Both the position numbers and the translations under genes were made by a program. The notes under the pieces are model-generated. The model did no database searches and was not told the DNA's origin. It saw nothing but the letters and a program-made list of their open reading frames with translations. Positions 2,273 through 58,900 of a DNA stretch of 64,000 nt are shown piece by piece. How positions within the stretch are numbered: position 1 is the stretch's first letter; every line of letters starts with the position of its first letter. The DNA is from Geosiphon pyriformis uo1 (Eukaryota; Fungi; Glomeromycota), in contig JAAOMT010000494.1 in assembly GCA_016748015.1 (NCBI GenBank), positions 736,190-800,189 on the forward strand. Direction: 5' to 3'.

Positions 2273-2946
2273 TGTTACAGTTGAAACCCATAATTTTTAT
2301 TAGTTATCACATGTATTAGTCACTGATGTCATATAATTAGCCACTCTATTTTTAGATAGTGATCATTGACCTGATCAATGACCTAACCGTTGACCTGATC
2401 ATTGACCTAATCAATGACCTGATTGTTGACCTGATCATTGACCTGATCATTGACCTAGTCGTTGACCTGGTCATTGACCACTTTTAATAGCTATATAAAC
2501 GATGAGTCTCTTAGCTGTAGAAAATCATCTCTCAGACAAGAATCAAATAAATAAAAATAACAACTTTCATCTCAAACACTCTCTTATCACTAATTTCTCT
2601 TTCCTGTTTGAATAATTGTAGTATTTGAAGACTATTTGTATAAACATGACTGAAGAGCACAAGTTGATACCTGATATTGAATTCTAAGAGTGCTGACGTG
2701 AAGGCATAGAATTAATACCAGCAGTGATCAATTGTTGACAGTATGGACTATCCCTCTACCTTCAAATTCTCTTGTTACCTTTTGAAAAGAATAGCGAACA
2801 AGATATTTTATGAGACTGATCTTGCACATTGAATCCATACTCATTCAATTCGCTCTTTAAAGTTGAATTCCCTTTTGATTATTTCCATCACCCTACAATC
2901 CTGTTCTCCCTTGCTATCTGTTAGCTTGTTACTCCAACCCGTAACA
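2273..2946 (+). repeat. 5' LTR of A2
   Basis: Direct repeat of 11670-12326 with TGTTA..TAACA ends. Confidence 0.95.
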
Positions 2947-8247: not shown

Positions 8248-8258
<11 letters not shown>

Positions 8259-11013: not shown

Positions 11014-11700
11014 ATAATTGCACCATTCCCAAAACAGAGGTATCTTCAATCGACATGAATAATTATTTCCTAGATCAAAACATTCTACACTTTCCATGAG
11101 TACTGGATCAAAAACTATCCAAATGCTACTCTGACCATTGAAAAACAAACCACCATAACTGATAACAGTGGAACACATACTGTTATTAGACCAAAGAAAA
11201 CAACTACCAAAAGAGAAAGAATTGGTAGCAAAATGGATAAGTATTTGCTAGAAAGCATAACAGCAGCAATACTTACACCTTCCATGACAATTGGAAAAAC
11301 GATTATGGAAATCTTGCCCATAGACAAAAACTTGTTATATGGAAGACAACAAGAACTCTATGGTCGTTTTGGTGAAATCATAGAATAAATGAAGCTCATA
11401 AAGAAAACAACTTCAGAGATACAAGTGGAAATTTTAGGTATTATATGTTTAAATGTTCCAAAAGTTTTGATCATTGCAAGAAGAGCCAAAACTCTTATAG
11501 AAAGATTTGGTTTCTTGGATACAAAGCTTATTTCGCCTCAAGTACTATACACTCTATCCACAAAAGACTTCAACAAACTAGTTAGTTTTGAGTTAGACAA
11601 AACCCTTCAATTAGAATACCCTATAAATAACTTGATTTTGCTGGAGCTTAATCTCTTTGGAGAGGATGATGTTATAATTGAAACCCATAATTTTTATTAA
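10990..11700 (+). pseudogene. ORF3-like helical domain of A2, in the same frame as integrase
   Basis: Continuous frame broken only by TAA/TGA/TAG stops that C-to-T changes can explain. Includes ORF 11389..11700 and runs through the PPT. Confidence 0.6.
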
Positions 11701-17823: not shown

Positions 17824-17853
17824 AAACATTTCAACCCAAAAATATAACAAAAA

Positions 17854-19291: not shown

Positions 19292-19921
19292 ATGAAGATT
19301 ATAAACAGCATTCACTCACTAGCACAACAACTTTTTCAACTGATCCAACAACAAAAAATGGAAATTACAATTAACCAACAAACTATCAGATACACAAACA
19401 CCAGAAAAAGACCATAAGATAAAATACAGAAGAAAACAGAAAACACAGTGAACAAAATAATTACAAAAGTGAAATTGGCAATAGAAACACAACCAAAAGT
19501 CACCCAATATTAAGAGTTAACTATAGAAACTTGGAATTGGTAGATACAACAATTTTCAAGAAATTTTTGTTACTTTTATTTGGAACAACACTTGAATATT
19601 CAGGGCTTATATACAGATAAAACAAAATAATTATTTGACACCACAATACTGCAACAACTAGAACAATTTGTGGAGAAGAACAATTTGACTACACAAGCAA
19701 AAGCCATTTATCAGCTACACACTGGATTTCAGGATCGACCAGAAATCTTACTCAATTTAGAAATGAACTCCATTATTATTAACCAAATGGGAAAAATAAC
19801 CAACACTTAATTTGAAGAATTACAGAACAAGATAGCACAAGTAATTTTTGAAAAAAAAGTTCAAGAAATACTCAAAAATGGAGAATTAGAATTAAGAGAT
19901 CTTGACGGAGCTCAATATTAA
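19292..19921 (+). pseudogene. ORF3 of B1 (about 209 codons, unknown function)
   Basis: The ATG-to-TAA span is 630 nt. Homologous to ORF3 of B2 and C1. Confidence 0.7.
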
Positions 19922-20597: not shown

Positions 20598-21483
20598 TAT
20601 TACTCATAAAAAGAAAAACAGATATAGGGAGAATAGTAGACCAATGAGTGAATAGTATGTAGCATGTGAGCACATTGCTCAGCAATGTAGAGCAATGATA
20701 GAAATCACGGCACATTGCTCAGCAATATAGAGCAATGTCAGAAAACATGGCATATTGCTTAGCAATATAGAGCTATATTAGAAAATTAGAGCACATCACT
20801 CAGCAATATGAGCATTGCTCAAGAAATTATAGCACATCATTCAGAAATGTGAGTGATTTCATAGAACATTAATTATGTATATATAGTGATAGTATTAGAA
20901 GTAGAAAGATAAGAATCCTTTAGTTAGAAATCTTCCATTTACAAATATTAGATAAATAAATTATTCACTATCCAAATCCACTCTTCACTATCAACATTTT
21001 ATGTTGATAGTAATTGATACCTAACCATGCTGGAACAATAGCTCTTAATTATGGCTATTAACAAGATACTAATGTACACATTACCTTGGCTCATTTCTTT
21101 ATTTTCTTTTATTTATTTATTTCTTTAATTTTTTACTGTTGTATACTAACTGATTAAGGATTAAAGCACTGAGTAATTGATGTCATGGATAGTCTGGTAA
21201 AAGACCCAGAAATAAGAGTAAAATTATATATATATTAACAGATAGCTTACCAGAAAGGCACGACTGCCAGAATAAACCAGCCACCAAGCTGAAAACAGAA
21301 ATTGGGAACACAACTCACCAACCAACTACATTGTCATTGAATCTCTGTTCATTATACAAAAGACTCAACTCTAAAACCTTCAAATACAACCAATGTACTA
21401 GTATTACCAGCATTGTCAAGATATTGAGCACCAAGTTATGGATTTGTTATTTGATTTGAGACCCCAAATAATCATTTGTAACA
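20598..21483 (+). repeat. 5' LTR of C1 (about 41-bp GCACATTGCTCAGCAAT-type U3 repeats)
   Basis: Direct repeat of 29787-30568. Confidence 0.93.
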
Positions 21484-27664: not shown

Positions 27665-27694
27665 AAACATTTCAACCCAAAAATATAATAAAAG

Positions 27695-29136: not shown

Positions 29137-29772
29137 ATGGAAATACCAGATTATATTCACATCATAGCTCAACAATTATTCCAGGCCTTAAGTTAACAAC
29201 CTTTAGACATAGAAATTATTATTAAAAACCAAACAATTTGCTATCAAAACACCAAAAGAAAGACAAAAAATACACCATATCAGCAGTTACCAAAAAATAA
29301 TAAAAACTGGTCAGATAAAATAATAGAAAAAGTAAAAAACACTTTTGGGAAAATACCTATTATGGCACCAACAGAAAAACTTACAAAAAAAAATTGGAAA
29401 CAATGGACAGAACAACTTCCAATATTATATTGTTACTACCAATTAGGTCGAAAGTTAAATATTCAAGAGTTGTATATCGACAAATCCAAAAAGATATTTA
29501 ACCAAAACATAATACAGCAAATTGAAGAATTTATTGGGAAAAAGACAAACTCAACACTACATGGGAGAACAATTTACCAACTGCACAATATATTTCAGAA
29601 CTATCCAGAAATACTGTTATACTCTGACATGGAAATTATAACCATTAACCAATGAGAAAAAATGAACAATGTACAAGTAGAAGACATGAAAAATAAAGTC
29701 AAACAAACAATACTAGAAAAAAAAGTATTAGAGCTAATTCAGAATGAAGATTTTGACAGAGCTTAATATTAA
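29137..29772 (+). pseudogene. ORF3 of C1 (about 211 codons)
   Basis: MEIPDYIHIIAQQLF..YCYYQLG..RTIYQLH..PEILL. The frame is preserved. Confidence 0.72.
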
Positions 29773-29786
29773 AAAGGAGGAGATAA

Positions 29787-30568
29787 TATTACTCATAAAA
29801 AAAACAGATATAGGGAGAATAGTAAACCAATGAGTAAATAGTATGTAGCACGTGAACACATTGCTCAGCAATATAGAGCAATGATAGAAATCACAGCACA
29901 TTGCTCAAGAAATTATAGCATATTACTCAAGAATGTGAGCAATTTTGTAGAACATCAATTATGTATATATAGTGGTAGCATTAAAAGTAGAAAGATAAGA
30001 ATCCTTTAATTAGAAATTTTCTATCTATAAATATTAAATAAATAAATCATTCACTATTTAAATTTACTTTTCACTATCAACACTTCATGTTGATAGTAAT
30101 TAATACCTAATCATGCTAGAACAATAGCTTTTGATTATGGCTATTGATAAGATACTAACGTGCATATCGTCTTGGCTTATTTTTTTATTTTCTTTTATTT
30201 CTTTCTTTCTTTGATTTTTACTGTCATATACTAACTGATTAAGGATTAAAGTGCTGAGTAATTGACATCACGGATAGCCTGATAAAAGATCCAGAAATAA
30301 GGGTAAAATTATATATATATTAATGGATAGCTTACCAGAAAGGCATAACTGCCAGAATAAACTGGCCACCAAGCTGAAAACAGAAATTGGGAACACAACT
30401 CATCAACCAACTACATTGTCATTGAATCTCTGTCCATTATACAAAAGACTCAACTTTAAAACCTTTAGATACAACTAACATACCAGTATTACCAACATTG
30501 TCAAGATATTGAGCACCAAGTTATGGATTTGTTATTTGATTTAAGACTTCAAATAATTATCTATAATA
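29787..30568 (+). repeat. 3' LTR of C1
   Basis: Follows the PPT, has a degenerate end (ctataata) and is followed by the TSD. Confidence 0.92.
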
Positions 30569-32141: not shown

Positions 32142-33621
32142 GAGGTATTTTTTTCTCCAGTACTTGTTGGTGTTCATCTAATAATTCTTTGGTGAGCATC
32201 AGCATCAGTTTTTTGTGAGAACCAAGTAGCAGAAGAGTCTTGAAGGTAACCACCAATGATTTAGAACTTGTATTTAGTGTTATATTGGTTGACAGTAACT
32301 GCTCTCTTAAAATCATCCAATCATTCAATTGGATTTTGTGCATCATTTTTAAATAAAAGTAGTGGAGTATTGTTTTTTTGTTCTAAAGCAGTTTGTATAC
32401 TTTGGAAGACAGCTAAAATATTTGCTTGCATGGAGTTATTAGTCATTGATTCAGGAATAATTGTTTGTGCAAAATGTTTTAATTCACTTGAGAAAAGATC
32501 AAAAACAAAAGCAGTTTGGTAGCTTTTTTTTTTTGTTTTAAGGGGAGTTTTAATTGATTAATGGGCAGCAATCCAGATGTGGATTTGATAATTCAAATAT
32601 TCGAAATCAGGAAGCTGTTGTTTAAAAGTTGTTGAGTATAAAAGTTGGTTAATGCTGTTGTTTTTTTTTTCAAAGTTGTTTTCAAGATAAGCTTGGTCAA
32701 AGTAGTAAGTTGTATAGGCTGTATAAGTTTCAGCTAAATGCTTGTTTAAGAATCAGTTCCAAAAATCTTGAAATTGTCTACTGGATTGTTCTTCAATGAG
32801 AAAGCAAATTAAGCAGAAAGACAAAGAATTGAATTTAATAAAGTCTAGATTGTTTTTATTGTGTGCTTCAAAGTGTTTTTCTGATTGTTGTAACAGATAT
32901 GAATAATCATCTATATAATAGAATTTTGACAACCTTACAGGGAGCACTACTTTTATGTTATGAGTTGAAATAACAAGCTAACAGATAGCAAAAGAGAACA
33001 GAATTGTAGAGTGATAAAAGAAATCAAAGGAAATTTAACTTCAAAGAGCAAATTGAATAAGTATGGATTCAATGTGTAAAATTAGTCTCATAAAATATCT
33101 CAGTCACTATATTTTTCAAAAGATAATCAGAAAATTTGAAGGTAGAAGAATAGTCTGTACTGTTAACAAATGATTATATACTGGTATAATTCTATGCCTT
33201 ATGTCAGCACTCTTAGAATTCAATATCAGGTATTAGATATACTCTTCAGTTATGTTTTATTCAATAATCTTTAAATACTGCAATTACATGTTTTAAGAAA
33301 AAGTAGAAAACAACCAACAAATAATCTTTTATCACAAGATGTTCAAATACTTGAAAATAGAAAAAGAGAATTTAGCAATAAGAGAATAATTAAGATGAAA
33401 ATTGTTATTTTTTTTATTTTTTTTCTTTGATTCTTGTATGTTTTTCTATAGCTAAGAGATTCATTTCTTATATAGTTATCAAAAGTGGTCAATGATCAGA
33501 TCAACAACTAGGTCAATGATCAAATTAACAATTAGGTTAATAATTAGGTCAATGATTAGGTCAATAATCATTATCTAAAAAAAGAGTGGCTAATTATATA
33601 ACATCAATGGCTAATACATGT

Positions 33622-34437
33622 TATTACTCATAGAATATAGGAAATATAGTATTATTAGTCAGTAGATATTAGCCAATCAGAGGTAGATGTAGTAAATGTG
33701 GAATTTCAGAATTCTTCTCATCAGAAATTGCAAGATTCCAGGAATTTCAGGATTTCTGTCACAAAGAATTGAGGAATTGAGGAATCTCAATTATGTATAT
33801 ATAGCAGTAGAATTAGAAGCTGAAAAGACAGACCTCTCAGTTTAGATTTAATTTAAGCAACATTTCAGTTCCTAATTATCAAATAAATAATTATTCCATA
33901 TCTCAACCCACTCTCTACTATCAAAACTTCATGTTGATAATAATTGATACTTAACCATGCTGGAACAATAGCTCTTGATTATGGCTATTGACGAGATACT
34001 AACGTACCAAATTGCCTTGACTTATTTTTTCTATTTTCTTTATTTTTATTTTCTTTATTTTATTTTTATTTCTTTCTTTTTTTGATTTTGTTGTTGTATA
34101 CTAATTGATTAAAAGATTAAGCACTGAGTTATTGATGTCAAGAATAGCCTGGTAAAAGACCCAGAAATAAGGGTAGGATTTTATATATTATCAGATAGCT
34201 TACCAAAAGGGCACGACTACTAGACTAAATCTGGCCACCACACTGAGAAAGAAATTGGGAAAACTTTTGGAAAGATACAGCTACTATTGACACTATTGAA
34301 TTTCTGTCCATTATACAAAGAACTCCATCAAAACCTTCAGATACAACAATTGCAGAACCTCATCCATGGAAGTAGCTTTTGAGCACCAAGTTACGGGTTG
34401 TTATTTAATTCAACAGCAGAAATAATCATCTGTAATA
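33622..34437 (+). repeat. 5' LTR of B2
   Basis: Direct repeat of 42991-43846. Confidence 0.95.
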
Positions 34438-34499
34438 TTTGATGCTCCCTGTGAGGTATAATCCTACAGAGAACCAGCACCAACAAACACTATTCAAAA

Positions 34500-37400
34500 G
34501 TGGCAGAATCAGAAAATATAGGAGCAAACCATTTAGGATTCACAAAGTTCTTATTTCAACACTATTGTCAATACTTGGGATTAAATCACAATCATATATC
34601 TGCCGAATCAGCCTTCAATTTCTACATCAACAAAAAGATTTCCTCTTTATTAGGAACACCAGTGAATACTGAATTAGCAAGAGAAACTTTCTATAGGGAG
34701 TTAATTCAAAATACCAACCTGCCAACAAATCATAATTTCACATCCATCATCACTGAGATCAACAAAGAAATTAAACACCACATTCAACAAAGATATCTAA
34801 TTACATATGCTAGTAAAGGCAAGGGAAAACGAAAAACACCAGCAGTAACACCCAGAAAAATACAGCCACCTACTTGGAAGAAAAACAGAATTGAATTCCC
34901 AAGCAACCCATCCTACCACTATACACCTGAAAGCACCATCAACATATCATTAACAGATGCATTCCCATCAACTGTGACATCAGCATTTGGATGATTTTCA
35001 TTTCAAAGTAGACAAAGGAAAACAGAATTATTAGGACCATATGGTAAATACTTTGAGAGATTTAATTCACGATTATCAATTCCATTAGGACTTCGATTAC
35101 CACCGCCTCCACCAGATTTCGGGATCTCTGATCCATGAGAAGCAGCAGAATCAGAAAAAGAGGAAAAAGAATCAGAGAATCAAGAATTTACTTACCAGAA
35201 CCCAATCACTGAAAACCTGGAAGTTGAAACCCCGAATTTTCAAACTCAGCAAAATCTAAATCTAAAAAGTTCAGAAATCAAAACTCCAAATTGTCAAAGG
35301 CAGAACAATCCAAACCCTGAATTAAATAATCAGCAAAACTTATCTCTGGTAATTGTCATCGATCAACCACTGATTAATCCCATAGCCGAACTCATACAAC
35401 AGCCACTTCAACTACCACCTCAACAACCAGTACAACAACAACTGCTTCAACAGCTACCACAACCACCTAACTTAGATCCAATGGCCTATGCACCAATTGC
35501 AAAACTTGACAACTTTACTGGCAAAGAGGATGACACTCAAGTATGGTTGAATGATGTAGAAAAGACCATCGCAGCCAACAGATGGAATGATGCCCAAGCA
35601 ATACAAGCCATTCCCTACTTTCTCAAGGATACCACCAATTCGTGGTATCAGAGCTTGGTTAATAAACCACAAGATTTCAATGCCTTCAAAATGGAATTTC
35701 TAAGATACTTCAGCAATAATAACAGCATCAATCACCTAGTCAATACATTCACCACCATGAAACAAAGAAAAACTGAAGCAGTCACCACTTACCTAAAATG
35801 CTTCTATTAAAACCTGCGCCAAATTCAAGCAATTGATGCCAACTATTTTACAGCACCACAGATACTCAACCAGTTTATCCATGGCCTGCGCAGCAGCATC
35901 TTGCAATATATACATCCGTTGCATCCAGGCACACTTCAAAACACAGTCACACATGCCAGAGATTTTGAATCTGCTGAGTCAGAAGCCAACCATGCCCAAG
36001 CCATTAATCTAGTAATGAACAGATCATCTGAATTAGATTCCAAATTGGAGAAGTTCAGTGAATCAATTAATAAGAGATTGGAAAGATACTTAGCTGACAA
36101 TCACGCCATTTATCAGCCTTCACAATGACGCAATAATCAAGGAAACTCTAATCGTGCCCAAAATCAACCACATCCATCTTTATCAACCAATCAACAGTGG
36201 CAACAGGAAATGCGTATCTGCCACTATTGTGGTAAACAAGAACATATCCAAATGGACTGTCGCCAGTGTTTAAATAACCAATAATCAGGAAATCAATATT
36301 AAAACCCTGATCGCCGGTTCCAAACTCTGAATCAGTACCCAAATCAAAACCAATCCGCTTATCTACCAGTTACACAGTCATCAGTCTATTAATCTCTGGT
36401 GTATTAAGCTCCAATCTATCAACCACAGCCACAAGTAATTTATCAACAACTGCAGTCACAAATAATCTATCAACCCCAAAAAATCCAAACACCACCCCAA
36501 AGCTTACCACTCAACAGAACCCAAAGACCAAGAATGACTTAACAGAGATGGAGATCAGCGATAGTAGTCCATCAACTGATCCCCAGTTCTTCACAGCAAC
36601 CATCTGGATTACGCCAGCAGAATTTGGGTGTTGGTCAACCCCAGAACCCAAATTCCCAGAACTATTTAAGTCTCCTGGTCACCCCAGAAAATGCCTCAAC
36701 CAATAACCCGACATTTGCCCAAAAACAACCACTCACCAATAATATTCTACCTGCTACCATTACTGAAGACGAGTCTTTGGCTATTATATTTCCATTTGAA
36801 TTTGAAGAAACAACTGTAATGTCATTATTTAGTGGAGCCACTTTTGAAGCCAAACCAATCATCGTGATGTATACTAACGCCAAAGTCGAGGGACAATCCA
36901 TCAAATTAATCCTTGACAGCAGTTCAGCAGACAGCATCATCACATGACAACTTATGGATCAATTAGGTTGCCGAGTTGATTGAGCTGCCAGCACCAGAAT
37001 CATCATAGCCGATAGAGCAACCAAAACTCCAATCGGCGAAATTAACGACTTCTCTTTTGAAGTCAATGGCATTGTGACTCCTATTAAAGTTCTAGTGATG
37101 GAAGCCACTCAATACCAAGCTCTCATTGGTAATGACTGGCTATTCAAAGTCAACACGACATTAGACTGGAACACTCAGGAACTCCAGCTAACATATTAGG
37201 GCCAACACATATGTGTACTGGCCATGTGTGGTCACTTTAAAACTCTTCCAAGAGAGAAACTATTGATCAAACTGGAGGAGGAGAAAGAGAAACCTACTTG
37301 GGAAGCTTACCAAGTCTCGTGGGCCAATGTTGACCACAATAAACTGCTGCCAATACTTGCCTAGGATGACGATAACAATGGAAAAGAGGAACAAGAAAAA

Positions 37401-40400
37401 GAATCTATTTGTGGAACCACTATCGATGCTTGGACTGATGACAAAGACCACCACAAGCTAATGCCAATACTATCGTGGGACGACAACCCCAAGAGAAAGC
37501 AAAGAGAAGAACTTACCTGGGAAATAGATGACCTGACCTGAACTGACAACGATAAACAGGAACTGACACCAAGCTGGAAATAGAAAGAAAGCAACAAAGG
37601 GAAAGGAAAAGCAAAAGAAAAAGAGCCACTGTTAATAAACTCATATACTTCCTATCAATATACAACACCACAACAATTCACCTATTGACGACCCAAACTA
37701 GTGTGTGTCAATTGCGGCAAAAAATTGTTGTCAATGGGTGCATGCTGTGGCAATGACAAAGAATATTAGACAGCAACCAAGTTTTATTGTTACGCATGTC
37801 TCATTAAACACTTTGGAAGACCAAAACGAGTGGGAAAATGGGATAATACACCATGTCTAGCCTGTGGAAAAACTCTCCTCAATGAAGGAATGTGGAACAA
37901 CATTCCTGGAAGAGAAGGAATGTGCGATGTGTCCTGCCAATACACAATCTTTATCAGTGACTGGGTTGAGAAAGGAACACCCATAGAAGCCGCCTGGAAA
38001 AGAACTGTACAGCAATTGGACAGTTGTCCATATGACAACGATGAAATATGGCAGATGGCAATCGCCAAAATTGAAGATGTGTCACCAGAAGAAATCAGGA
38101 CAATTAAAAACAACCCACCAGAACCCATCGAGCTTGACTGGGATGCAGAGCCAGTCATAAATTTTCTGGAACCAGAAGAGTTCCATGAACACTACCAAAA
38201 CTTGGCACCCATTAGAGAAAAGCAAGAACAATAGCTAGCACAGTTAAATACAAGACTGTGTTGCCATTGTTTAATTCCCAATGACTTTGAATATTGTGAC
38301 AATTGTGATCTCATTTACAATCTACCACCACGCATGATCTACATGATCCCTGAGGAAGAAGAACCAATCAGCAGCTGTGCATCGGAATTAGAATTGCTGA
38401 TCAATCATGATCCAGACTTCGATGATGATGATGAAAACACTGGTTCCAGCTCCATTCAAAATGGCAATGACAACAAAGACAATTCAAACTCAGATTCAAA
38501 CTTTAATTTAAACTATGAACAATATATTGCACTATCAAATCTCTTCAAAAAACAAGAGTTGAAATAGTATAGTGACAATGGGGAAGGTATTATGTCAGAA
38601 CATGCACATGATACTGATGCAGGGTTTAATCTGAGGTATCCAGGAAAAAAGGCCATCAAATTGAAACCACATTTACACACTTGCATTGATCTGAAAGTAG
38701 CACTAGAAATTCCGGCAACAACAATGGTTCAACTAGCATCTAGGAGTAGTTTAGCAAAAAGAGAAATTAATATAAGAGGAGGAATAATTGACACAGGATA
38801 TGTGGGAAATATCATTGCTATGCTACAAAATGACTCAGAAAAGGCCTATATAATAGAGCCCAATAAAAAGATAGCACAGGCAATATTTCTGCCTCTGGTT
38901 AGAGTAGCTCAGTTAGTATCAGTGAGAAAGAGAAAGGAATTAGAAATAACAACAAGAGAAATACAGGGATTCAGATCAATGGGTAGAATAGATGTACCAA
39001 TTAATATGGCGGAAAAAAAAATTATTGGCCAAGAAGAAATTATCTTAACCAGTCAAGCTATTTCTATTTCACCATATAACCAGTACATGCTAGCAATAGA
39101 AAAGAAGGAAAAAGACCAAGCACAAATTTTTGAAGCAGAAGCCAGTCTTTGTGAATCAGGAGAAGTTAGACTCATCAATCTCCACATACCAGCCAAAGAT
39201 TACAGCCACATCAAAATTCCCATCTACAACAATACAGAAAATGTCATAGAAATACCAGCTGGAATTATTATTGGATACTTAAACACTAAAATAGAAGATC
39301 AACCACCAAACCCCATTCCAGACTTTCTACAACTTTGTGGATATATTGATATCATATTACAAACAATATATGGATAACGTGAATATTATTTGCTCCAACC
39401 AGAACAATTAGAACAAATGAACATGGGAAACTTAGATCCACTCTAACGTATGCAACTCAAAATGTTGCTCAACCAGTTCAATGACATCTTTGCCAGCAAA
39501 AATGAGTTTGGCCAAACCAACATTATCCAGCATCAGATTAAGACTGGAGATGTAATGCCAATTAAACAAAGAGCATACAGAGTACCACCAGTTAGCCACG
39601 AAATTATTCGGCAAGAGATAAACTGAATGCTTGACAATAGGCTAATTCAGCCATTGATGAGCCCATGGTCATCACCAGTAGTACTTATCCATAAGAAGAA
39701 TGGAAAGATCTGATTTTGTGTGGACTACAGAAAACTCAATGATGTAACTTGTGGAGACAGCTATCCAACTCTATGGATACAGAAATTATTTGATGCTTTT
39801 GGCAGGAACAAATGGTTCTCAACATTACACTTGGACAGTGGTTACTGACAAGTGGCCATAGATCCAGCTGACAAAGAGAAAATGGCATTTACCACGAGAG
39901 AAGGGAATTTTGAATTTGAAGTAATGCCATTCGGTTTAACCAACGCACCAGCCACTTTCCAATGGCTAATGGAAATCATCTATACTGGCTTATTGTGGAA
40001 ATCAGTAGTTGTATACTTGAATGACACCAATGTATTCTCAAAAACATTTGATGATCATTTCCATCATCTTCAACAAGTGTTTGAAAGACTAAGAAGAGCA
40101 GGACTAAAGTTAAATGCAACAAAGTGCTTCTTTGGCAAGACAGAACTAAAATTCTTGGGATATATAGTCAGCAAAGATGACATCAAAACAGATCCAGAGA
40201 AAATAGAGATAGTAAAGAACTTTCCAATGCCCACCAATATGACAGAACTAAAATCATTCTTGGGATTTGCCAGCTACTATTGATGTTTTATCAAGAACTT
40301 TTCCAAGATAGCGCAGCCACTCAACCAACTGCAAACCAAGAATACCAAATATGAATGGGCAGAAAGTCAACAAGAAGCTTTTGACATTTTGAAAAGAAAG

Positions 40401-40817
40401 CTCATTCAAGCTCCAGTACTGATTTATCCAGATCACAGCAAACCATTCATCATCACCACCGATGCATCTGGCCAAGTATTGAGAGCAGTATTATCTCAGA
40501 GAAGACCAAACGGCAGAGAACATCTAGTAGCATATGCTAGCAGAGGTTTAACACCAGCCAAAAAGAACTATGGAACACCAGAACAAAAACACTTAGCAAT
40601 ATACTGGACAGTCATGAAATGGAAAGAATACTTGAGCCAGAAGTTTGAAGTATACACAGATCACAAGGGATTAACATCACTCCAAAAACAAAAATTTGGA
40701 GATGGAAGACAGTCAAGATGGAAAATGGCACTTGCACTATACAATTATATTATACATTACAAAAAAAGAAAAGACAATGGAAATGTTGACAGTTTGTTAC
40801 AAATGAGACAAATCTAA
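34500..40817 (+). pseudogene. Single-frame gag-pol of B2 (gag, PR, Cys domain, dUTPase, RT, RNase H)
   Basis: The main ORF fragments (34500, 35481, 35901, 36624, 37830, 38334, 38592, 39852, 40389) all share one reading frame. Confidence 0.92.
38592..39000 (+). pseudogene. dut: dUTPase domain of B2
   Basis: DAGFNL, RSSL, GGIIDTGYVG, KIAQ, REIQGFRSMG. Confidence 0.9.
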
Positions 40818-40911
40818 GAAAATTTTAACACAAAAATATAACAAAACCAGAACAATACCAACAAAAAATATAACAAAACCAGAACAATACCAACAAAAAA
40901 TATAACAAAAG

Positions 40912-42294
40912 ATGAACATACAAAAATATTAATAACTTCAACATTATATAAATACTCAACAGTTTAAGAAGAATTTATTTCAAACAGAATGAAAGAGTAT
41001 CAAACAACAATCAAAATATTTTATTACTTACCAAAATATACTTTATCGGAAAAATAGAAAAGATCCAAATCAACCAACTAGAGTAATTACAGAACCAGAA
41101 AAAGAGATAATATTATTTAACATGTACTCAAATCCAACAGCAGGACATTTTCACAAAGAAGCAACCATGAAAAGAACCAAAAAAAGATACTATTGGCCAT
41201 CAATGTATTCAGACATCATCCAATATGTTCAAAATTGTGATGCTTGTCAGTGAAGAGGAGATATGAAACCCAGTGAACCATTAAGACCAATCAAAGTAGG
41301 ACAACCATTTGACCATGTTGGAATTGATCTAGTTGGACCATTAACAATTACCAGCGGAGGAAACAAGTACATAGTAGTAGCCATGGACTATCTCACTAAA
41401 TGGCCAGAAGCAAAAGCAATTCAAAGAGCAGATGCAGAATCTGTTGCCAAATTTGTTTATCAGGATTTGATCTGTCAACATAGATGTCCAAAAGAATTAT
41501 TATCAGATCAAGGAACTTATTTTGTGAACAAAACATTAACAGAATTGAGCCAAAGATTCGGAATTAAGAGACCACTATCATCACCATACCATCCACAAAC
41601 CAATGGATTAGTCAAAAAATTCAACAGAACATTATGTGAAGCAATAGCTAAACTCAGCCAAGAAAACCAAAACGATTGGGATTTGTTGATACTATCAGTA
41701 CTATTTGCTTATTGGACAATGAAGCAAAATACTACACAAGCAATACTATTTGAATTAGTATATGGTAGAACAGCAACACTACCAATGAAAAGAGAAGTCA
41801 GCACATATCCAATCGAACCAATAACAGAAGAAAATTTCAAAAATACATTGTTGAAAAGAACATATGACCTAATAGAAACATTAGAAAACAAACGACAAAG
41901 AGCAGCTGATAACATACAAAAGTCACAAGAGAAAAAAAAAGAAAGACATGATAACCAACTACCAGATAAACCAGTTGAATTTAGGATTGGAGACAAAGTA
42001 CTACTACATCATACCAAAGCGGAAAAACAATGGAGTGGAAAATTTGACCCCAAATAGAATAAACTATTTCACATAAAAGAAATTCTAGAAAATAGAGCTT
42101 ACAAATTAAGATTGAATAACAAAATCTTGACCAAAGCAGCACATAGAGATCGACTGAAACCATACTACCATATAGCATCATTATCTACTAGTAATATTCC
42201 ACAATTAGGAGTACAGAGAATACTAGTCCAACCAGATGAGATTCTACGAGAGCTAAAACCAATCATTATTATTGATAACAACACGTCCAATTGA
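40912..42294 (+). pseudogene. Integrase ORF of B2
   Basis: GIDLVGP, LLSDQG, SPYHPQTNG, KFDPK and an SH3-like tail. No chromodomain seen. Confidence 0.92.
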
Positions 42295-42347
42295 TCGACA
42301 AAAGAATATATAAGAATATGATCAACATGACAGGAAATATCAGAAAA

Positions 42348-42977
42348 ATGGAAATTACAGACAACATTCACTCACTAGCACAACAACTCTTTCAATTGAT
42401 TTAACACTAGGAAATGGAGATTACAATCAATTAACAAACCATTTGATATCAAAATACTAGAAAGACATTGCAACCCAGAACACAAAAGAAAACTGAAAAT
42501 ATGGTGAACAAAATCATTGCGAAAGTAAAATTAGCAATAAAAGAGTCAACAAAAGAGTTATTATATCAAGAATTGACTAAAGAAACTTGGAATTAGTGGA
42601 TACAACAATTTCCATAAAACTATTGTTATTTTTATTTGGGACAACACATAAATATCCAGAATCTATATACAGATAAAACAAAGCGATTATTTAACAAAAG
42701 AATACTACAACAATTAGAATATTTTGTGGGAAAAAACAACTTATCCACACAGGCCTGAGCCATATACTGAATACACACAGCATTTTAGGATAGACCAGAA
42801 ATATTACTCAACAAAGCAATGGATATGGTTACCAGTAATCAATTGGGAAAGATCACCAATGCTCAATTTGAAGAATTACAGACCCAAATAACACAAGTAA
42901 TTCTCGAAAACAAAATCCAGGAAATACTTCAAGAGAGAGAATTAAATGAGTTGGATTTCGATGGAGCTCAATATTAA
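42348..42977 (+). pseudogene. ORF3 of B2 (209 codons)
   Basis: MEITDNIHSLAQQLF...DFDGAQY*. The frame is preserved and the stops are of the C-to-T type. Confidence 0.72.
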
Positions 42978-42990
42978 AAGAAGAGGATAA

Positions 42991-43846
42991 TATTACTCAT
43001 AGAATATAGGAAATATAGTATTATTAGTCAGTAGATATTAGCCAATCAGAGGTAGACGTAGTAAATGTGGAATTCCAGAATTCCTCTCAGAGGAATTGCA
43101 GGATTCTAGGAATTTCAGGATTTCTCTCATCAGGAATTGCAGGATTCCAGGAATCCCAGGATTCCTGTCACAAAAAATTGAGGAATTGAGGAATCTCAAT
43201 TATGTATATATAGCAGTAGAATTAGAAGCTGAAAAGACAGACCTCTCAGTTTAGATTTAATCTAAGCAACATTCCAGTTCCCAATCATCAAATAAATAAT
43301 TATTCCATATCTCAACCCACTCTCTACTATCAACACTTCATGTTGATAGTAATTGATACTTAATCATGCTGAAACAATAGCTCTTGATCATGACTATTGA
43401 CGAGATACTAACGTACCAAATTGCCTTAGCTTATTTTTTCTATTTTCTTTATTTTTATTTTCTTTATTTTATTTTATTTTCTTTTTTTTTTTGATTTTGT
43501 TATTGTATACTAATTGATTAAAAGATTAAGCACTGAGTTATTGATGTTAAGAATAGCCTGGTAAAAGACCCAGAAATAAGGGTAGGATTTTATATATTAT
43601 CGGATAGCTTACCAGAAGGGCATGACTGCTAGACTAAATCCAGCCACCACACTAAAAAAGAAATTGGGAAAACTCTTGGAAAGATACAGCTACTATCAAC
43701 ACTATTGAATTTCTGTCCATTATACAAAGGACTCCATCAAAACCTTCAGATACAACAATTGCAGAACCTCATTCATGGAAATAGCTTTTAAGCACCAAGT
43801 TATGGGTTGTTATTTAATTCAACAGCAGAAATAATCACTTGTAACA
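42991..43846 (+). repeat. 3' LTR of B2
   Basis: Follows the PPT, ends TGTAACA and is followed by the TSD. Confidence 0.95.
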
Positions 43847-43886
43847 ATGTGATAATTAATAAAAAGTGTAAGTTTTAACCATAACA

Positions 43887-50200: not shown

Positions 50201-52073
50201 AAAAGAAGATAACACCTCTGGACACACTTATATGATACAACATATCATTATCACTAAGAAAACTCATCTCATTTATTTAAAGCCTTATCAATCTAATTGA
50301 TACAATGATGAATTTATCAAGAAAAAGATAAACCAGATAAAAGATCTTGGATTCATATAAAAAACCAAGAGTGAATAGACTTTTCCAGTTGTAGTAATAT
50401 TCAAGAAAGATAGAATCCTATGCTTCTGTGTTGACTACTGCCAACTAAATGTCATCACTATAAAAAATATGTACACACTTCCCAAAATTGATGCAATGCT
50501 AGATAAATTCAATGATGCTGCTTTCTTTTCAACCATTAACTTAACTGCTGAATTCTGGCAAGTAGAGATGGATCCAGAAAGCAAAAAAAAAACTGCTTTT
50601 ATCACCAAGTATGGCACCTATGAATTCACAGTTATGTTTTTTGGTCTTACCAATGCTCCTTCCACTTTTCAATGCCTAATGAATAAAGTGTTTAAATTAG
50701 TAAAAGAAAACTTTGTTCTGGTTTACTTAGACAACATAATAGTATATTCAAAAACCTAGGATAAATACTTTGAACATTTACAGAAGGTTTTTGACCTGCT
50801 CTAAAATGCTGGCCTTAAGATCAACCCAATTAAATCTTTTTTTGGATGCCAATCCACCCAGTTTTTTGGTCATTTTATTACAAAAAATGAAATCTTCTCT
50901 GATTCAGCTAAAATTGAAAAAGTTCAAAACATTAGACAACCAATAAATGTTCCTAAACTATGCTTTTTCCATGGTTTGGCCTCTTATTATCACAAATTTA
51001 TCAAAGATTTTTCCAAAATTGTCTTTCCTTTCAATCAGCTACTCAGAAAAAATATCAATTATTACTGGAGTATTTATCAACAAAAAGCTTTTAAAATTCT
51101 GAAAGAAAAACTTGTTACTGAACCAATTTTTAAGCAACCTAATCTGAACCAACCTTTTATCTTCTATACTGATACATTTGGTTATAGACTTAGTGCTGTT
51201 TTTTCACAGAAAAATGAAAATAGCAGAAAACATGCCATAGTATATACCAGTAGATCCCTCACATCAGCAGAAAAGAACTATTCAATTACTAAACAGGAAT
51301 ACTTACTAGTAGTTTGGACTACTAATTACTGGAATCAATATTTTCTAGGCACAAAATTCTTAGTGGTAACAGATCATTAAGTCTTGGTTTGACTGTGCAA
51401 TAAAAAGAAGCTGGAACACAAAAAAATAACTTACTGGATACTCTACTTAGATAAATTCAACTATAACATTCAACATTATAAAAGAGCAAATCATTAAAAT
51501 GTAGATGTTTTTTCTAAACTTACCATCCAGTAACAGTACAACCTTTCAAACCAAACCAACTTAATTATTAGTAACTCTTTCACAAACAAACACAATAATA
51601 AACTTGGACAACTATTCTGCCTTAATAGAATTTTTGGGTAAAGAACAATACTCACCAGAATACACTTGACAGCAAAGAAAACATTTGCATAAACAATTAA
51701 ATTTCTATTTGATCTGCCAAAACCAGTTATATAAAAAAAACAGAAAAGATCCTAACTGTCCCCAAAAAGTCATCAAATTTGAAGAAAGAGAAATAGTAAT
51801 ATACAATATGTACACTGATCCATTAGTTAGACACTTTGGAAAAACAAAGACAATTCAAAAAACTTTAGCTTATTATTATTAGCCTATCTTGGAAAAAGAC
51901 ATTACTGAATACATCAAAACCTGTAACATCTGTCAAAGAAGAGGCAAACCCAATTGCAAAGAAGATATCCATCCAATCTCTGTTGGTCAATCATTTAACA
52001 GAATTGGTATAGATGTTGTTAGACTTTTAACAATAACTTCTGATGGTAACAAATATATTATTACAACTACCAA
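46525..52073 (+). mobile_element. Family A copy A3 (5' LTR to mid-integrase, cut by C2)
   Basis: LTR 46525-47249, PBS about 47256-47270, gag about 47302-48855, pol to 51533, integrase from 51598. Confidence 0.92.
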
Positions 52074-52910
52074 TGTTATTTATAAATAAAAAAAAACAGA
52101 TATAGAAAATAGCAGACCAATAAGAGAATAGTATTTAGCACATGAGCACATTGCTTAGCAATGTGAAGCAATGTCAGAAAACACAGCATATTACTTAGCA
52201 ATATGGAGCGATATTAAAAAATTAGAGCACATCACTTAGCAATATAAGCATTGCTCAAAAAATCATAGCACATTGCTCGAGAATGTGAGCAATCTTATAG
52301 AACATCAATCATATATATATAGCAGTAACAGTAGAAGTAGAAAAAAAAAAAGAAAAAAAAAACAATTAGTTAGAAATCTTCCATTCACAAATAATAAATA
52401 AATAAATTATTTACTATCCAAATCCACTCTCCACTATTAACACTTCATATTGATAGTTATTGATACATAACTATACTGGACCAATAGTTTTTGATCATGG
52501 CTATTGATGGAATACTAACATGTTCATTGCCTTGGCTTATTTTTATGTTATTTCTTTTATTTTCTTGTCTTAATTGTTGTTATTACTAACTTTATTGAGG
52601 ATTAACATACAGAGTACTAACATTAGAATATAGCACTGGTAAAAAACCCAGAAATAAGGGTAGAACACTCAATTAAGGTTAGCTTACCAGGAAAAACACT
52701 GGCCATCATGCTAAGAAAAAAATTGATAAAACTGCGGTTTTGGGAAGCTACAAATAAAACTATTACTACTGAATCTCTGTTCATTATACAAAAAACTCAA
52801 CCAAAACCTTCAGATAAATCCATCTTCAGATTTCTATCATTGACAACAGCCTTAAGCACCAAGTTACAGGTTTGTTATTTACTCCAACAACCAAGTAATC
52901 ACCTGTAACA
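52074..52910 (+). repeat. 5' LTR of C2
   Basis: C-type U3 repeats with TGTTA..TAACA ends. Confidence 0.9.
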
Positions 52911-55900
52911 TTTGGTGCTTTCTGTAAAGTATAATCTTACAGAGAACCAGCACCAACAAATAAATCAACAGTGACAAAATCAGAAAGTATAAGAGCAAAC
53001 TATTTAGGATTCACAAAATTCTTATTTCAACACTACTGTCAACACTTGGAATTGAACCACAATCAGATATCAGCAGAATCAGCCTTTAATTTCTATGTTA
53101 ACAAAAGAATTGCCTATTTGTTAGGAACACCAGTAAACACTGAATCAGTGAAAGAAACTTTTTACCACAAATTAATCCAAAACACCAGCTTACCAACAAA
53201 TTATAATTTCACATCCATTATTACTAAGATTAATAAAGAAATTAAACATCACACACAACAAAGATACTCAATTACTTATGCCAGTAAAGGCAAAGGAAAA
53301 TTACAAACACCAGCAGTAACACCTTAATGGATCTAACCACTTACTTGGAAGAAACACAGAATTGAATTACCTACAAATTCATCATATCATTATACTCCTG
53401 GAAGTGCCATCAATATTGCATCAGTAGGCGTGTCTATATCAAATATGACATCAACATTTAGACAATTTCCATTTCAAAGTAAACAAAGGAAAGAAGATCT
53501 ATTAGAACCATATGGCGCGTACTTCAAGGAATTCAAATCAAGATCATCAACACCATCAGGAGTTTGATTACCACCACCTCAACCAGATTTTGGAATTACT
53601 AATCTGTAGGAACCAACTGAATTGGAAAAAGAAGAAGAAGAGGAAGAAGAATCTGAAGATCAAGAATTTATTTACCAGAACCTGATTACTGAGAACCTGA
53701 ATATTAGAACCCTGAATTTTCAGATTCAGCAAGATCAAAATCTAGAAAATCCAGAAATCAAAACTCTGCCAAATCAGAACAACCAAAACCCCAAATTAAT
53801 TAATTAACAAAACTTATCTCCAAATATCATCATCAATCAGCCACCAATTGAACTGATTATTGAACTGATTCAACAACAGCAAATATCCTTTCAACAGCTA
53901 TCACTATAGCAACTTATCCAGCAACTGGGTTAACAACTGCAATAATAGCTTCAACTACCAATACAACAACAACAACCGATTGTGCCAATGGCTTTGGCAC
54001 CAATCACAAAACTTGAGAAGTTCACCAGTAAAGAGGACAACACCTAGGCATGAATCAATGACATTGCCAAAGCCATTACTGCAAATAATTAGGATGACAC
54101 AAGAACAATGTAAGTCATCCCATATTTCCTAAAGAATACCACCAACTCATAGTATTATAGCTTAGCCCAGAAACCTCAAAATTTTAATGCATTTAAAATA
54201 GAATTCCTAAAATATTTCAGTAATAATAACAGCATCAATCATCTGGCAAGTACTTTTACCACCCTAAAGCAAGGAGACACAGAAGCAGTCACCACTTACT
54301 TGAGATGCTTCCACAGAAATCTGCACCAAATCCAAGCTATCCAAGCTGATTACTTTACAGTGCCACAAATCTTAAATCAGTTCATCAGAGGCTTATGCAG
54401 CAGTATCCTCCAATGAGTACATCCAATACATTCAGTAGACCTTCCTACTGTAGTCACTTATGCTAGAGATTTTGAAACTGCTGAGTTAGAAGCCAACCAT
54501 GCCCAAGCTGTGAATTTAGTAATGAATAGATCATCTGACTTGGATTCTAAACTGAAACAATTCAGTAATTTCATTAATCAAAAATTAGAGAGATACTTAG
54601 CTGACAATTGCTCAATTTATTAGTCTCCTCAATAACATAATAATCAGAAAAACATGAATTATTTCCAAAATCAGTCATGTCCATCATCATCAACAAATCA
54701 GCCATAGCAACAAAAAATGCAAATCTGCCACAACTGTGGTAAACAAAGTCACATTAGAGCCAATTGCTGTGCTTATAGTAACTCATGATTAGAAAATCAA
54801 TATTGGAATCTTGATCACCAGTTCCCAACTCCAAATCATTACTCGAATCAAAATCAATATCAATCCGCTTACCTGCCAATAACACTGCCAATTTATCAAA
54901 CACTGATATATTAACCTCAATTATATCAACTGCAGTCATCTATAATATATTAACCACAACCACAAATAGTCTATCAACCACAACAATTAATTCAAACACT
55001 GTCCCAAAACCCATTTATGATAACATCCAGAAACCCCAGATCCCAAGTAACCCAAAACTAGAAATTGGTGATAGTGGTTCACCAATCAATCCCCAGTTTA
55101 TCAAATCAACCATTAGGATTATGCCAATAGAGTTCAAGAACTGGATATAACCAAAACCTGAGTTCTCAGAACTACTTAAGTTTTCTGGTTACCCCAGAAA
55201 ATGCTACATTCAGCAAACAGGAAACCAACCAGAAGCCACTTACCTGCAACATTTCACTAGCTGCCAGCACTAAAGATGAATTACTTGCTACCATATTCCC
55301 ATTTAAACTTAAGGAAATCACATCAGTTTTATTATTCAGTGGAGCTGCTCTGGACACCAAACCAATAACCATGATGTATACTGATGCCAAAGTTGATGGT
55401 CAGTATATCAAACTGATCTTAGATTGTAGATCAGTTGGCAGCATTATCACCAAACAACTTATGGATCAATTAGGTTGTCAAGTTGACTGAACTGCCAGTG
55501 CAAGAATCATCACAACCAATGAAGCAACCAAAACTCCTATTGGCAAGATTGACAACTTCTCTTTTGAAGTCAACAGCATCATAGTCTCTATCAAAGTTTT
55601 GGTAATAGAAGCCACTCAATACCAAGCACTAGTTGGTAATAACTGGCTCACTAAAACAAATGCCATACTGGATTGGACAACGCAAGAGCTCCAACTCAGC
55701 CAAAATGGTTGACATACACATGTACCAGCCATGTACAGCCACTTTAAAACCATCAACACACCAGCACCACTTATTAAGTTTAAGAAAGAAGAGAAAAAAC
55801 CTACCTGGAAAGTCTATTAAGTCTTGTGGGCTGACAATGACCACAATAAACTACTACCAATACTCTGTTGGGAGACAATGACAATAAAAAAGGAAAACAA

Positions 55901-58900
55901 AGAAAAGAACATATCTGGAGAACTACTGTCGATGCTTGAACCAATGACAGCCAAAGTGAGTTGCTACCAACAATAAGCTGGGAGGAAAAAGGGAAAGAAA
56001 AAGAAAAAGAAAAAAATGTACCTGGAGAAATTAAACCCACAAAAGACACAACCAAAGGATAGACAAGCTCATACTCCATTCGCCAGCTGCTATTACAGCC
56101 ACCATTTATTTCACTTAAATGCAAAGACTGTGGAAAAAAACTCTTTTCCATGGGAGTATGAATCGTGCCAGATGAAGACCATTGAATGTGAACACATTAT
56201 TATTGCAAACTGTGCTATTGCGAATGCTATGGATATTCAAAACACCAAGACAAGTGGGACAACAAACCATGTCTCACTTGTGGTAAACAGCTACTTGATG
56301 AAAGGATGTGGAATGACATTCCTAGTTGAGGAGGAACATGTGACACTTCATGCCAGTACATAATTCTCATTAGTAACTGGGTGAGTTGTAGCATGCCCAT
56401 AACAGCAGCTTAACAGAGAGCAATTAACCAATTGGATGACTACCCACACAATGAGGATGAGATCTGGCAAATGGCAAATGCCAAAGTTCAAGGAGCCATG
56501 CCCAGTGAAATTTTAAAAGTTAAAAACAACCCATCTGAACAAGTTGACATTATTCTTGTTCCAAATCCAGATGCTTTTCTCGACATAAAAACCAATCCAG
56601 AAGACTTCCATGAGCATTACCAAAACTTGGCGCCCACCAGAGAAGAACAGAAAGAGTGTTTAGCACAGCTAAACACTTGATTATGTGACTACTGTTTAAT
56701 TCTATATGACTTTCAATATTGTAATGAGTGTGACCTTATTTACAACCCACCAATCCACATGATCTACACAATCCCAGAAGAAAAAGAACTAATCAGTAGC
56801 TGCACATTAGAATCAGAATCAATTTTCAATCCCAACTCAAATCCTAACAACGATAATGATAAAAATAATGGTTCCAGCTCTGTTCAAAATAGCAATAACA
56901 ATGACAACAATTCTAACTCAGATTCAAACTCCAATTCAAACTACAAACAATATATTGCACTCCTTGACCTCACCAAGAAGCAGGAACTAAAATGGTTTAG
57001 CAACAATAATGAAAGTATCATGCCAGAACATGCGCATAATACTGATGCAGAGTTTGATCTGAAATATCCTGGAAAAGATGCTATCAAATTGGAACCACAT
57101 TCATGTACTTGCATTGATCTAAAAATAGCACTGGGAATTCTAGCAACCACAATGGTTCAACTAGCATCTAAGAGTAGTCTAGCAAAAAGAGGAATTAACA
57201 TCAGAGGAAGAATAATTAACACAGGATATGTGGGAAATATCATTGCTATGCTATAAAATGATTCAGAAAAAACCTATGTAATAGAGCCAAACAAAAAAAT
57301 AGTGCAGACAATATTTCTGCCTCTGGTCAAAATAGCTCAGTTAGTATCAATAGGAAATAGGAAAGAATTAGGAATAACAGCAAGAGGAATACAGAGATTT
57401 AGATCAATAGGTAGAGTAGATATATCAGTTAATATAGTGGAAGAAGAGATTATTGACAAGGGAAAAATTATCTTTACCAGTCAACTAATTTCATTCCACC
57501 ATATGACCAGTATATGATAGTCATAGAAAGGAAAGTGAAGAATCAGAACCAGATTTTTGAGACAGAAGCAGCACATTGTAAATCAGGAGAAATTGGACTC
57601 ATCAATCTTTACATACTAGCCAGGAACTACAGCCACATCAAAATTCCCATTTACAACAACACTGAAAAGGTTATGGAGATACCAGAAAGAACCATTATAG
57701 GACATTTAACTACTGAAATAGAGGACCAACCACCAAACCCCATTCCAGACTTTTCACAGCTTTGTGAATATGTTGACATCACATCACAAACAATATATAG
57801 ACGAAATAAATGTTATTTGCTCCAATCAGAACAATTGGAACAAATGAACATGGGAAATCTAGACACACTTCAATGCATACAGCTGAAAATATTGCTCAAC
57901 AAGTTCAATAACATCTTTGCCAGCGAGAATGAATTTGGCAGAACTGACATCATCCAACACCAGATCAAAATTGAAGATACTATGCTAATAAAACAATGAG
58001 CATATAGAGTACCACCTGCCAGCCATGAAATTATTTGTCAAGAAATCAACCGGATGCTTGACAATGGGTTAATTCAGCCATTAATAAGCCCATGGTCATT
58101 ACCAATAGTACTTGTCCAGAAAAAGAATGGAAAAATCTGCTTTTGCATGAACTACAGGAAGCTTAATAGAGTCATGCATAAAGACAGCTATCCAACTCCA
58201 TGGATTCAGGAATTATTTGATGCTTTTGGAAGAAACAAATGGTTCTTAACATTGGATTTAGATAGTGGTTATTGGCAAGTAGCCATAGATCCAGTGGACA
58301 AAAAAAAGACCACATTCACAACACAAGAGGAAAATTTTGAATTTGAAGTAATGCTATTCAGCTTAACAAATGCACCAGCCAAATTCCAATGGCTAATAGA
58401 AATAGTATATATCAGCTTGTTATAGAAATCAGTAGTCATTTATTTAGATGACACCAATGTGTTCTTCAAAACATTCAATGATTATTTGCATCATCTACAA
58501 CAAGTGTTTGAAAGGCTACGATGAGCAGAACTAAAGTTAAATGCCAATAAGTGCTTCTTTGACAAGACAGAATTAAACTTTTTAGGGCACATAATAAGCA
58601 AAGACAGCATCAAAATGGATCCAAAAAAGATAAAAATAGTCAAGAACTTTCCAGTACCAATCAATGTGACAGAGTTAAAATCATTCTTGAGATTCATAAG
58701 CTATTATTGATGCTTTATCAAAAACTTTTCCAAGATAGCTCAACCACTCAATTATTTCCAAACCAAAAATGTGAAATATGAATGGACAAAAGCACAACAA
58801 GAAGCTTTTGATATTCTAAGAAGAAAGCTTATACAAGCTCCAGTACTGATCTATTCAGATTACAACAAACCATTTATTATTACCACCGATGCATTAGGCC

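What the first reader, a model, noticed from the sequence alone, without database searches (positions are those of the whole stretch)
42348..42977. Conserved ~210-aa ORF3 in the env position, with a distant counterpart in family A
Seen: B1 (19292-19921), C1 (29137-29772) and B2 keep a frame of 630-636 nt. Residues are conserved (AQQLFQ, W.QW..Q.P..YCY..LG, IY..H..FQ..PEILL, FDGAQY) despite strong DNA divergence. A2 has a similar pattern (Y..FG..ARRA..L..F..ISP..L..LS..DF..L) in frame with integrase, where a chromodomain would normally sit. I see no signal peptide or transmembrane segment, so it is not Env. Inference: a lineage-wide accessory protein under selection, possibly an integration-targeting or anti-silencing factor, fused to IN in A and free in B/C.
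Basis: partly seen in the sequence, partly recalled or inferred. Interest (0 to 1): 0.75.

Follow-up and report, generated by a model that had tools for sequence, protein, structure and literature searches.

The report
Swappable third gene in fungal retrotransposons
Decayed Gypsy-type jumping genes in this fungal DNA carry, between integrase and the end repeat, the remains of a real, formerly selected gene for a small protein, predicted to be soluble and helical, that matched no family in the libraries searched; it is separate from integrase and likely regulates the element's own expression.

Summary
The ORF3 frame is real, but dead in all three window copies (9, 5 and 3 internal stops). It evolved under purifying selection (omega 0.14-0.19, p about 1e-21 against omega = 1). 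It belongs to a family of at least seven subfamilies at 21-40% identity, found in Geosiphon pyriformis Ty3/Gypsy elements and in unnamed metagenomic sequences. The predicted protein is soluble: alpha-beta-beta head, basic linker, helical core, acidic tail. It has no Pfam, PDB or viral-structure match and no membrane segment, so it is not Env.

The proposed integrase fusion in family A is refuted. Family-A ORF3 is a free 218-aa gene with its own ATG; an 11-nt loss in copy A2 moved it into the integrase frame. Homology between A and B/C is borderline. 'FDGAQY' is partly a DNA motif beside the polypurine tract.

Two new observations: ORF3 plus the U3 part of the LTR has been exchanged as one block between lineages, and integrase is itself a separate ORF in 7 of 7 junctions read. 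Best guess, untested: a nuclear activator of the element's own LTR (30%).

The parts
42348..42977 (+). ORF3 of element B2, 209 codons, 9 internal stops; possible earlier start at 42318
19292..19921 (+). ORF3 of element B1, 209 codons, 5 internal stops
29137..29772 (+). ORF3 of element C1 (C-type), 211 codons, 3 internal stops
11055..11700 (+). Family-A ORF3 of element A2: own ATG overlapping an integrase-frame TGA (11056-11058); 11 nt short after about codon 10, so the rest lies in the integrase frame; runs through the polypurine tract into the LTR
35139..40817 (+). B2 Gag-protease-dUTPase-RT-RNase H frame (decayed), ending in a stop before integrase; the frame extends upstream to 34455
40912..42294 (+). 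B2 integrase as a separate ORF (H2C2, rve, weak SH3; no chromodomain hit)
42963..42990 (+). GGAGCTYAAT motif and polypurine tract overlapping the ORF3 end
42991..43846 (+). B2 3' LTR; U3 holds a CCAAT box, 41-bp repeats (43069-43172) and a TATA-like box; target-site duplication ATGT at 43847-43850
33622..34437 (+). B2 5' LTR (94.6% identical to the 3' LTR over 814 columns); ATGT at 33618-33621
20670..20814 (+). C-type U3 40-bp repeats (C1 5' LTR); the same type at 29860-29933 and 52144-52274
2360..2479 (+). A-type U3 12-bp repeats (A2 5' LTR)

Best explanation
ORF3 is a free-standing third gene of these fungal Ty3/Gypsy retrotransposons that was under purifying selection while the elements were active, and its soluble helical product likely acts in the nucleus to raise transcription from the element's own LTR. 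Shown: the gene is real, separate from integrase, has no membrane-like segment, has seven divergent subfamilies, and is exchanged between lineages together with U3. Inferred: translation from its own start, by re-initiation after the integrase stop or from an internal promoter; the basic linker as nuclear-import or nucleic-acid-binding stretch; the helical core binding the family-specific U3 repeats, directly or through host factors; the acidic tail as activation region. The window copies died after insertion, by C-to-T and G-to-A decay.
For: Selection: omega 0.19 (own MG94-type fit) and 0.14 (IQ-TREE), 2dL = 90.9 against omega = 1; shifted and antisense frames of the same DNA give 0.99-2.56. 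Family: leave-one-out z of 21-40 for seven subfamilies. The 7 invariant columns are 6 hydrophobic residues and one Asn, with no catalytic-type set. Layout: the most basic 25-mer starts at residues 28-42 in 11 of 13 proteins, and the last 35 residues are net acidic in 12 of 13; model pLDDT 71. Linkage: B-C DNA identity falls from 0.77-0.87 in integrase to 0.59-0.62 at the ORF3 start and recovers near the LTR TATA box. Fourfold-site differences B1-C1 are 7 of 62 in integrase and 8 of 12 in ORF3 (p = 1.4e-4). Each family has its own dyad-containing U3 repeat. In L001 ORF3 is intact, 316 nt after the integrase stop, with a TATA-like word in the spacer. Precedent: foamy-virus Tas binds the LTR and an internal promoter (PMC4929722, abstract); plant 3' additional ORFs are proposed to be nuclear regulators (PMC7264820).
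Against: No binding, localisation or expression data exist. ORF3 and U3 are adjacent, so one template switch moves them together whether or not they interact. The U3 repeats resemble host-factor sites (heat-shock-element-like in B, bZIP-like in C, HMG-like in A; consensus sites recalled, not tested), so they need no element-encoded ligand. In some families the acidic tail is partly forced by the purine-rich tract it is read from. Overall pI ranges from 5.4 to 9.7, so the family is not uniformly basic. The U3 motifs were defined after looking at these sequences, one of 8 U3 regions had no motif hit, and the swap statistics rest on 12-13 sites. The spacer in L001 is 77% AT, so a TATA-like word is cheap.
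Confidence: 0.3

Rival explanations
1. ORF3 is an RNA-level regulator, like CERV or Rev: it would export or stabilise unspliced genomic RNA, or help translate the downstream cistrons.
For: Basic linker and helical core. The element has three cistrons whose expression needs explaining. CERV of Cer1 is a precedent in an LTR retrotransposon (PMC10309623, abstract).
Against: No spliced form is shown. R, U5, leader and pol, where an RNA element would most likely lie, are not exchanged with ORF3 in C1.
Confidence: 0.2
2. ORF3 is an integrase partner: it would package, import or steer the separately encoded integrase.
For: It lies next to integrase; integrase has no chromodomain hit and is not fused to Gag-Pol in 7 of 7 junctions, so it needs a route into particles.
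Against: No fusion exists in A. Nearly the same integrase (71-73% identity among decayed copies) works with ORF3 types only 44-46% identical.
Confidence: 0.2
3. ORF3 is an anti-silencing factor that would counter DNA methylation or small RNAs.
For: The host attacks these elements: CpG observed/expected 0.15 in the window; 16 of 17 stops face Gln, Arg or Trp in intact relatives. TEs of the related fungus Rhizophagus are methylated and yield small RNAs (10.1101/2021.03.30.436303, passages). Fast divergence and swapping fit an arms race.
Against: No enzyme signature and no match to known suppressors; omega is low, with no sign of positive selection in three sequences.
Confidence: 0.15
4. ORF3 is a captured viral coat or movement protein that would serve spread between nuclei or cells.
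For: It sits in the env position. The ESM Atlas listed a closterovirus coat cluster at 0.93 and 0.91.
Against: Shared features were 156 and 138 of 256, under the tool's 170 guide, and both queries were below its recognition mark. No Pfam hit; no membrane-like segment.
Confidence: 0.05
5. The frame is a by-product of conserved cis-acting DNA and encodes nothing useful.
For: All window copies are broken; the last codons overlap a conserved DNA motif.
Against: Omega far below 1 only in the coding frame; protein-level similarity across 21-40% identity; intact copies exist (P0160, P0006, P0253, P0048, P0054).
Confidence: 0.02

Closest known systems
Sense additional ORFs between pol and the 3' LTR of plant Ty3/Gypsy elements (Athila, Bagy2 env-like), and the antisense ones (Grande gene23, RIRE2, Retand, Botrytis Boty); PMC7264820, main text read
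   Same: Position, presence in most copies, conservation like other element proteins, unknown function.
   Different: No membrane segment (unlike env-like ORFs), sense strand (unlike gene23 or Boty), no Pfam family shared; sequence homology to these ORFs was not tested directly.
'add. ORF' of unknown function and dUTPase between PR and RT in fungal Gypsy elements; PMC2864245, passages read
   Same: Fungal Gypsy with an extra ORF; dUTPase between protease and RT as in B2.
   Different: That survey concerns chromodomain elements; here there is no chromodomain hit. Its extra ORFs were not compared with ORF3, and its figure and supplements were not seen.
Foamy-virus Tas (PMC4929722, abstract) and Cer1 CERV (PMC10309623, abstract)
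   Same: Small regulatory proteins encoded apart from gag-pol; functional analogues for the best and first rival explanations.
   Different: No sequence or fold relationship detected; analogy only.
Bdelloid LTR-retrotransposon ORF3 types (Env, GDSL esterase, DEDDy nuclease); PMC5408684, abstract
   Same: Modular, exchangeable ORF3 slot in dUTPase-bearing elements.
   Different: Those ORF3s are recognisable enzymes or Env; this one has no catalytic signature.

Membership tests
Ty3/Gypsy LTR retrotransposon (Metaviridae-like) | Gag, protease, RT, RNase H, integrase in that order | tested here: met
   Pfam hits in B2 in this order, with dUTPase between protease and RT
Ty3/Gypsy LTR retrotransposon (Metaviridae-like) | Two LTRs, polypurine tract, target-site duplication | tested here: met
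   B2 LTRs 94.6% identical, ATGT on both flanks, purine tract at 42978-42990
Ty3/Gypsy LTR retrotransposon (Metaviridae-like) | Integrase translated as part of the Pol polyprotein | tested here: not met
   Stop right after RNase H and a separate integrase Met in 7 of 7 junctions; joining by splicing cannot be excluded without RNA
Env / env-like ORF | Signal peptide and transmembrane segment | tested here: not met
   Maximum 19-residue hydropathy 0.27-1.29 in 11 B-H sequences, 1.37 and 1.61 in two A sequences; no hydrophobic N-terminus. Hydropathy screen only, no dedicated predictor
Chromovirus / integrase C-terminal targeting domain | Chromodomain or other domain fused in frame to integrase | tested here: not met
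   No chromodomain hit; ORF3 has its own start in another frame or lies 316 nt downstream
Conserved sense 3' additional ORF of LTR retrotransposons | Between pol and 3' LTR, same strand, in most copies, under selection | tested here: met
   4 of 4 window elements that retain this region, plus L001
One ORF3 family including type A | Significant profile or structure match between A and B-H | tested here: inconclusive
   hhalign probability 0.1-0.6%; mean global-alignment z 2.0-4.6 against 2.0 or less for controls; A model pLDDT 43
Closterovirus coat protein (PF01785) | Pfam match or coat fold | tested here: inconclusive
   Atlas lead only; no Pfam hit; not listed in fold searches
Tas-like LTR transactivator | Binds U3 and activates the LTR | not testable with these tools
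   Needs binding and reporter assays

The most novel reading that the evidence does not exclude
Glomeromycotina carry a lineage of three-cistron Gypsy elements (Gag-Pol without integrase; free integrase; ORF3) in which ORF3 is an element-encoded transactivator of a new fold, matched to family-specific U3 repeats and swapped with them as a regulator-promoter cassette: a foamy-virus-like regulatory design that arose independently in fungi.
Probability: 0.2. Interest if true: 0.8.

Novelty: new variant of a known kind. Interest (0 to 1): 0.5.

Why it matters
LTR elements cover 41% of the Geosiphon genome (PMC11952901, passage), and over 200 of the relatives found here are annotated as hypothetical host genes, so recognising ORF3 corrects annotation. 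The function of non-Env third ORFs is an open question. This family offers natural pairs of ORF3 and U3 types, which makes a regulator-promoter specificity test straightforward. A separately encoded integrase would also raise the question of how it reaches the particle.

Tried and rejected
No whole genome was held, so genome-wide copy analysis was impossible. No RNA holder was listed, so expression and splicing are untested. Pfam, NCBIfam and PHROGs gave no hit at any cut-off; PDB sequence search best E 0.28. Fold searches: 0 matches at E <= 0.001 in PDB and BFVD; best Z 4.0 and none at Z >= 5 among 48,161 chains. This does not show that the fold is new, and the domains were not folded separately. 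The family-A model was too poor to search with. Homodimer prediction gave no verdict. Viral-contig scans found nothing, nor did the prokaryote-genome scan. The metagenome scan gave 2 loci, one of which holds only the last ORF3 codons. An intron removing the RNase H stop was considered for family A: it would restore the frame in A2 but not in A3 (my reading), so it was not adopted. Rejected: integrase fusion, Env, chromodomain substitute, non-coding artefact. Literature searches listed no description of this ORF or of a separate integrase in these elements. The Geosiphon genome paper was not held, and TE libraries and supplements were not seen, so prior annotation there cannot be excluded.

Full report
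Setting. The window is a nest of decayed Ty3/Gypsy elements. B2 (33622-43846) is complete: LTRs 94.6% identical, ATGT on both flanks, and Pfam hits for Gag, protease, dUTPase, RT, RNase H and integrase in that order. All named relatives of ORF3 are annotated as Geosiphon pyriformis hypothetical proteins: 4 of 4, 97 of 97, 118 of the 120 listed out of 163 (43 weaker rows were not shown). One gene model is 100% identical to A2 over a third of the query. I infer that the window comes from this fungus or a close relative.

Observation. The three frames exist at the stated coordinates. B2 is 66% identical to B1 and 43.5% to C1. They are not open: 9, 5 and 3 internal stops. Sixteen of the 17 stops face Gln, Arg or Trp in intact relatives, and CpG observed/expected is 0.15, which fits deamination after insertion. 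B1 and B2 align over the whole ORF without a gap, against 8 gaps in a neighbouring LTR stretch. The B-C DNA alignments were too divergent for that test.

Selection. With stops masked, omega was 0.19 in my MG94-type fit and 0.14 in IQ-TREE; fixing omega at 1 cost 2dL = 90.9 (p = 1.5e-21). Counting methods gave 0.18-0.23 without and 0.32-0.53 with transition weighting; shifted and antisense frames gave 0.99-2.56. Integrase of the same copies gave 0.25-0.35. Only three sequences were used.

Family. A search of 1.84 billion representatives gave 53 hits. Of 10 looked up, 8 were Geosiphon and 2 unnamed metagenomic. The hits fall into seven subfamilies (B-H) at 21-40% identity, each tied to the others at z 21-40. 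Seven columns are invariant among the seven representatives: six hydrophobic and one Asn, which argues against an enzyme (inference). Metagenomic locus L001 holds an RT-RNase H ORF, an integrase 54-60% identical to those of B and C (one internal stop), a 316-nt spacer, and an intact 230-aa ORF3 only 29-32% identical to B and C. Its host organism is unknown. No Pfam, NCBIfam or PHROGs family reached significance.

Protein. A model of the intact natural relative P0160 (84% identical to B2) has pLDDT 71 and pTM 0.63: an uncertain alpha-beta-beta head (3-36), a disordered linker (39-49), a confident helical core (52-195) and a loose tail. No membrane-like or signal-like stretch was found. The most basic window covers the linker in 11 of 13 proteins, and the tail is net acidic in 12 of 13. 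It is therefore not Env.

Family A. Its ORF3 is a free gene: 20 of 97 relatives are exactly 218 aa and 56 of 97 begin at the same Met. In A2 that ATG (11055) overlaps an integrase-frame TGA (11056), and residue 13 begins 11 nt earlier than expected, which moves the rest into the integrase frame. The 19 of 97 gene models with an integrase piece join at scattered points and none passes residue 402 of 418, as expected of predicted splices over decayed DNA. The fusion is thus an artefact of one copy. Homology to B-H is unproven. Profile comparisons gave 0.1-0.6% probability, and HMM scores equalled those of reversed and shuffled controls. Averaged global alignments gave z 2.0-4.6 for three A proteins, against 2.0 or less for a reversed one and 20 unrelated pieces; block-shuffle controls lowered this to 1.2-3.6. 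Same position, size, charge layout and predicted order of elements (pLDDT 43) make homology more likely than not; my estimate is 60%.

The C-terminal motif. A GGAGCTYAAT-like word followed by the purine tract and the LTR start occurs in B1, B2, C1, A2 and L001. It reads as GAQY in B and C, and in another frame in A and L001, where ORF3 runs into the LTR. Its conservation is at least partly that of a DNA element.

Exchange. B1, B2 and C1 have nearly equidistant integrases, but C1's ORF3 is far off (branch 2.4 against 0.3). DNA identity drops from 0.77-0.87 to 0.59-0.62 at the ORF3 start and recovers near the LTR TATA box. Fourfold-site differences rise too: 7 of 62 against 8 of 12 for B1-C1 (p = 1.4e-4), 15 of 80 against 7 of 13 for B2-C1 (p = 0.011), with no such shift for B1-B2 (p = 0.32). 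So ORF3 and U3 were most likely exchanged as a block. One template switch at the integrase end is enough to produce this. Each family has its own U3 repeat with dyad character. The palindrome counts include nested duplicates and used simple shuffles, so they are weak.

Integrase. A stop follows RNase H, and integrase has its own Met, in B1, C1, B2, C2, A2, A3 and L001 (7 of 7). The 3' half is therefore two free cistrons, unless RNA splicing joins them. No RNA was available.

Mechanism. I commit to a nuclear activator of the element's own LTR (30%), from position, exchange with U3, basic linker, acidic tail and the absence of enzyme or membrane features. Every functional step is inferred. Adjacency alone explains the co-exchange, and the repeats could be host-factor sites (recalled consensus, untested). 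Rivals are RNA export or translation control (20%), integrase partner (20%) and anti-silencing (15%).

Known context. Conserved extra ORFs between pol and the 3' LTR are known in plants and Botrytis (PMC7264820, main text read; 10.1101/2021.04.13.439636, passages), in fungal Gypsy elements (PMC2864245, passages) and in rotifers (PMC5408684, abstract). The class is known; this protein family, its exchange with U3 and the separate integrase were not found. Earlier scan notes describe small helical acidic-tailed ORF3s in other fungal Gypsy elements, but the sequence look-up found no look-alike; these are unchecked leads, not support. Verdict: a real, undescribed accessory gene family, new variant of a known kind, interest 0.5.

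Noticed in passing
window 17812-17860, 27653-27700, 40806-40914, 59233-59280, 9621-9702, 51522-51600; L001 772-801: RT-RNase H ends in a stop and integrase starts at its own Met in 7 of 7 junctions, across families A, B, C and the metagenomic element. Unusual for Ty3/Gypsy; may deserve its own study.
   Followed up: partly
window about 37680-38330 (B2), with counterparts in B1, C1, C2: Long cysteine-rich insert between protease and dUTPase with several CxxC pairs and no Pfam hit.
   Followed up: no
window 38590-38950 (B2): dUTPase domain between protease and RT (E 4e-16); no such motif was seen in the family-A translation (not scanned).
   Followed up: partly
window 34455-35135: About 227 codons in frame upstream of Gag, starting just after the primer-binding-site-like sequence, no Pfam hit; shared by B/C elements.
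   Followed up: no
window 52080-59954 (C2): Second recombinant: C-type U3 joined to B2-like R, U5 and leader; truncated inside integrase, so its ORF3 is lost.
   Followed up: partly
window 5800-8089: A different repeat, with open frames of 419 and 296 codons (5939-8089), inserted in A2 between protease and RT and ending near a 44-nt poly(A) at 8213-8256; looks like a LINE-type insertion.
   Followed up: no
ESM Atlas: An unnamed 190-aa Mucoromycota cluster (98 members) scored 0.94 and 0.90; it may extend the family to other Glomeromycotina. Lead only.
   Followed up: no
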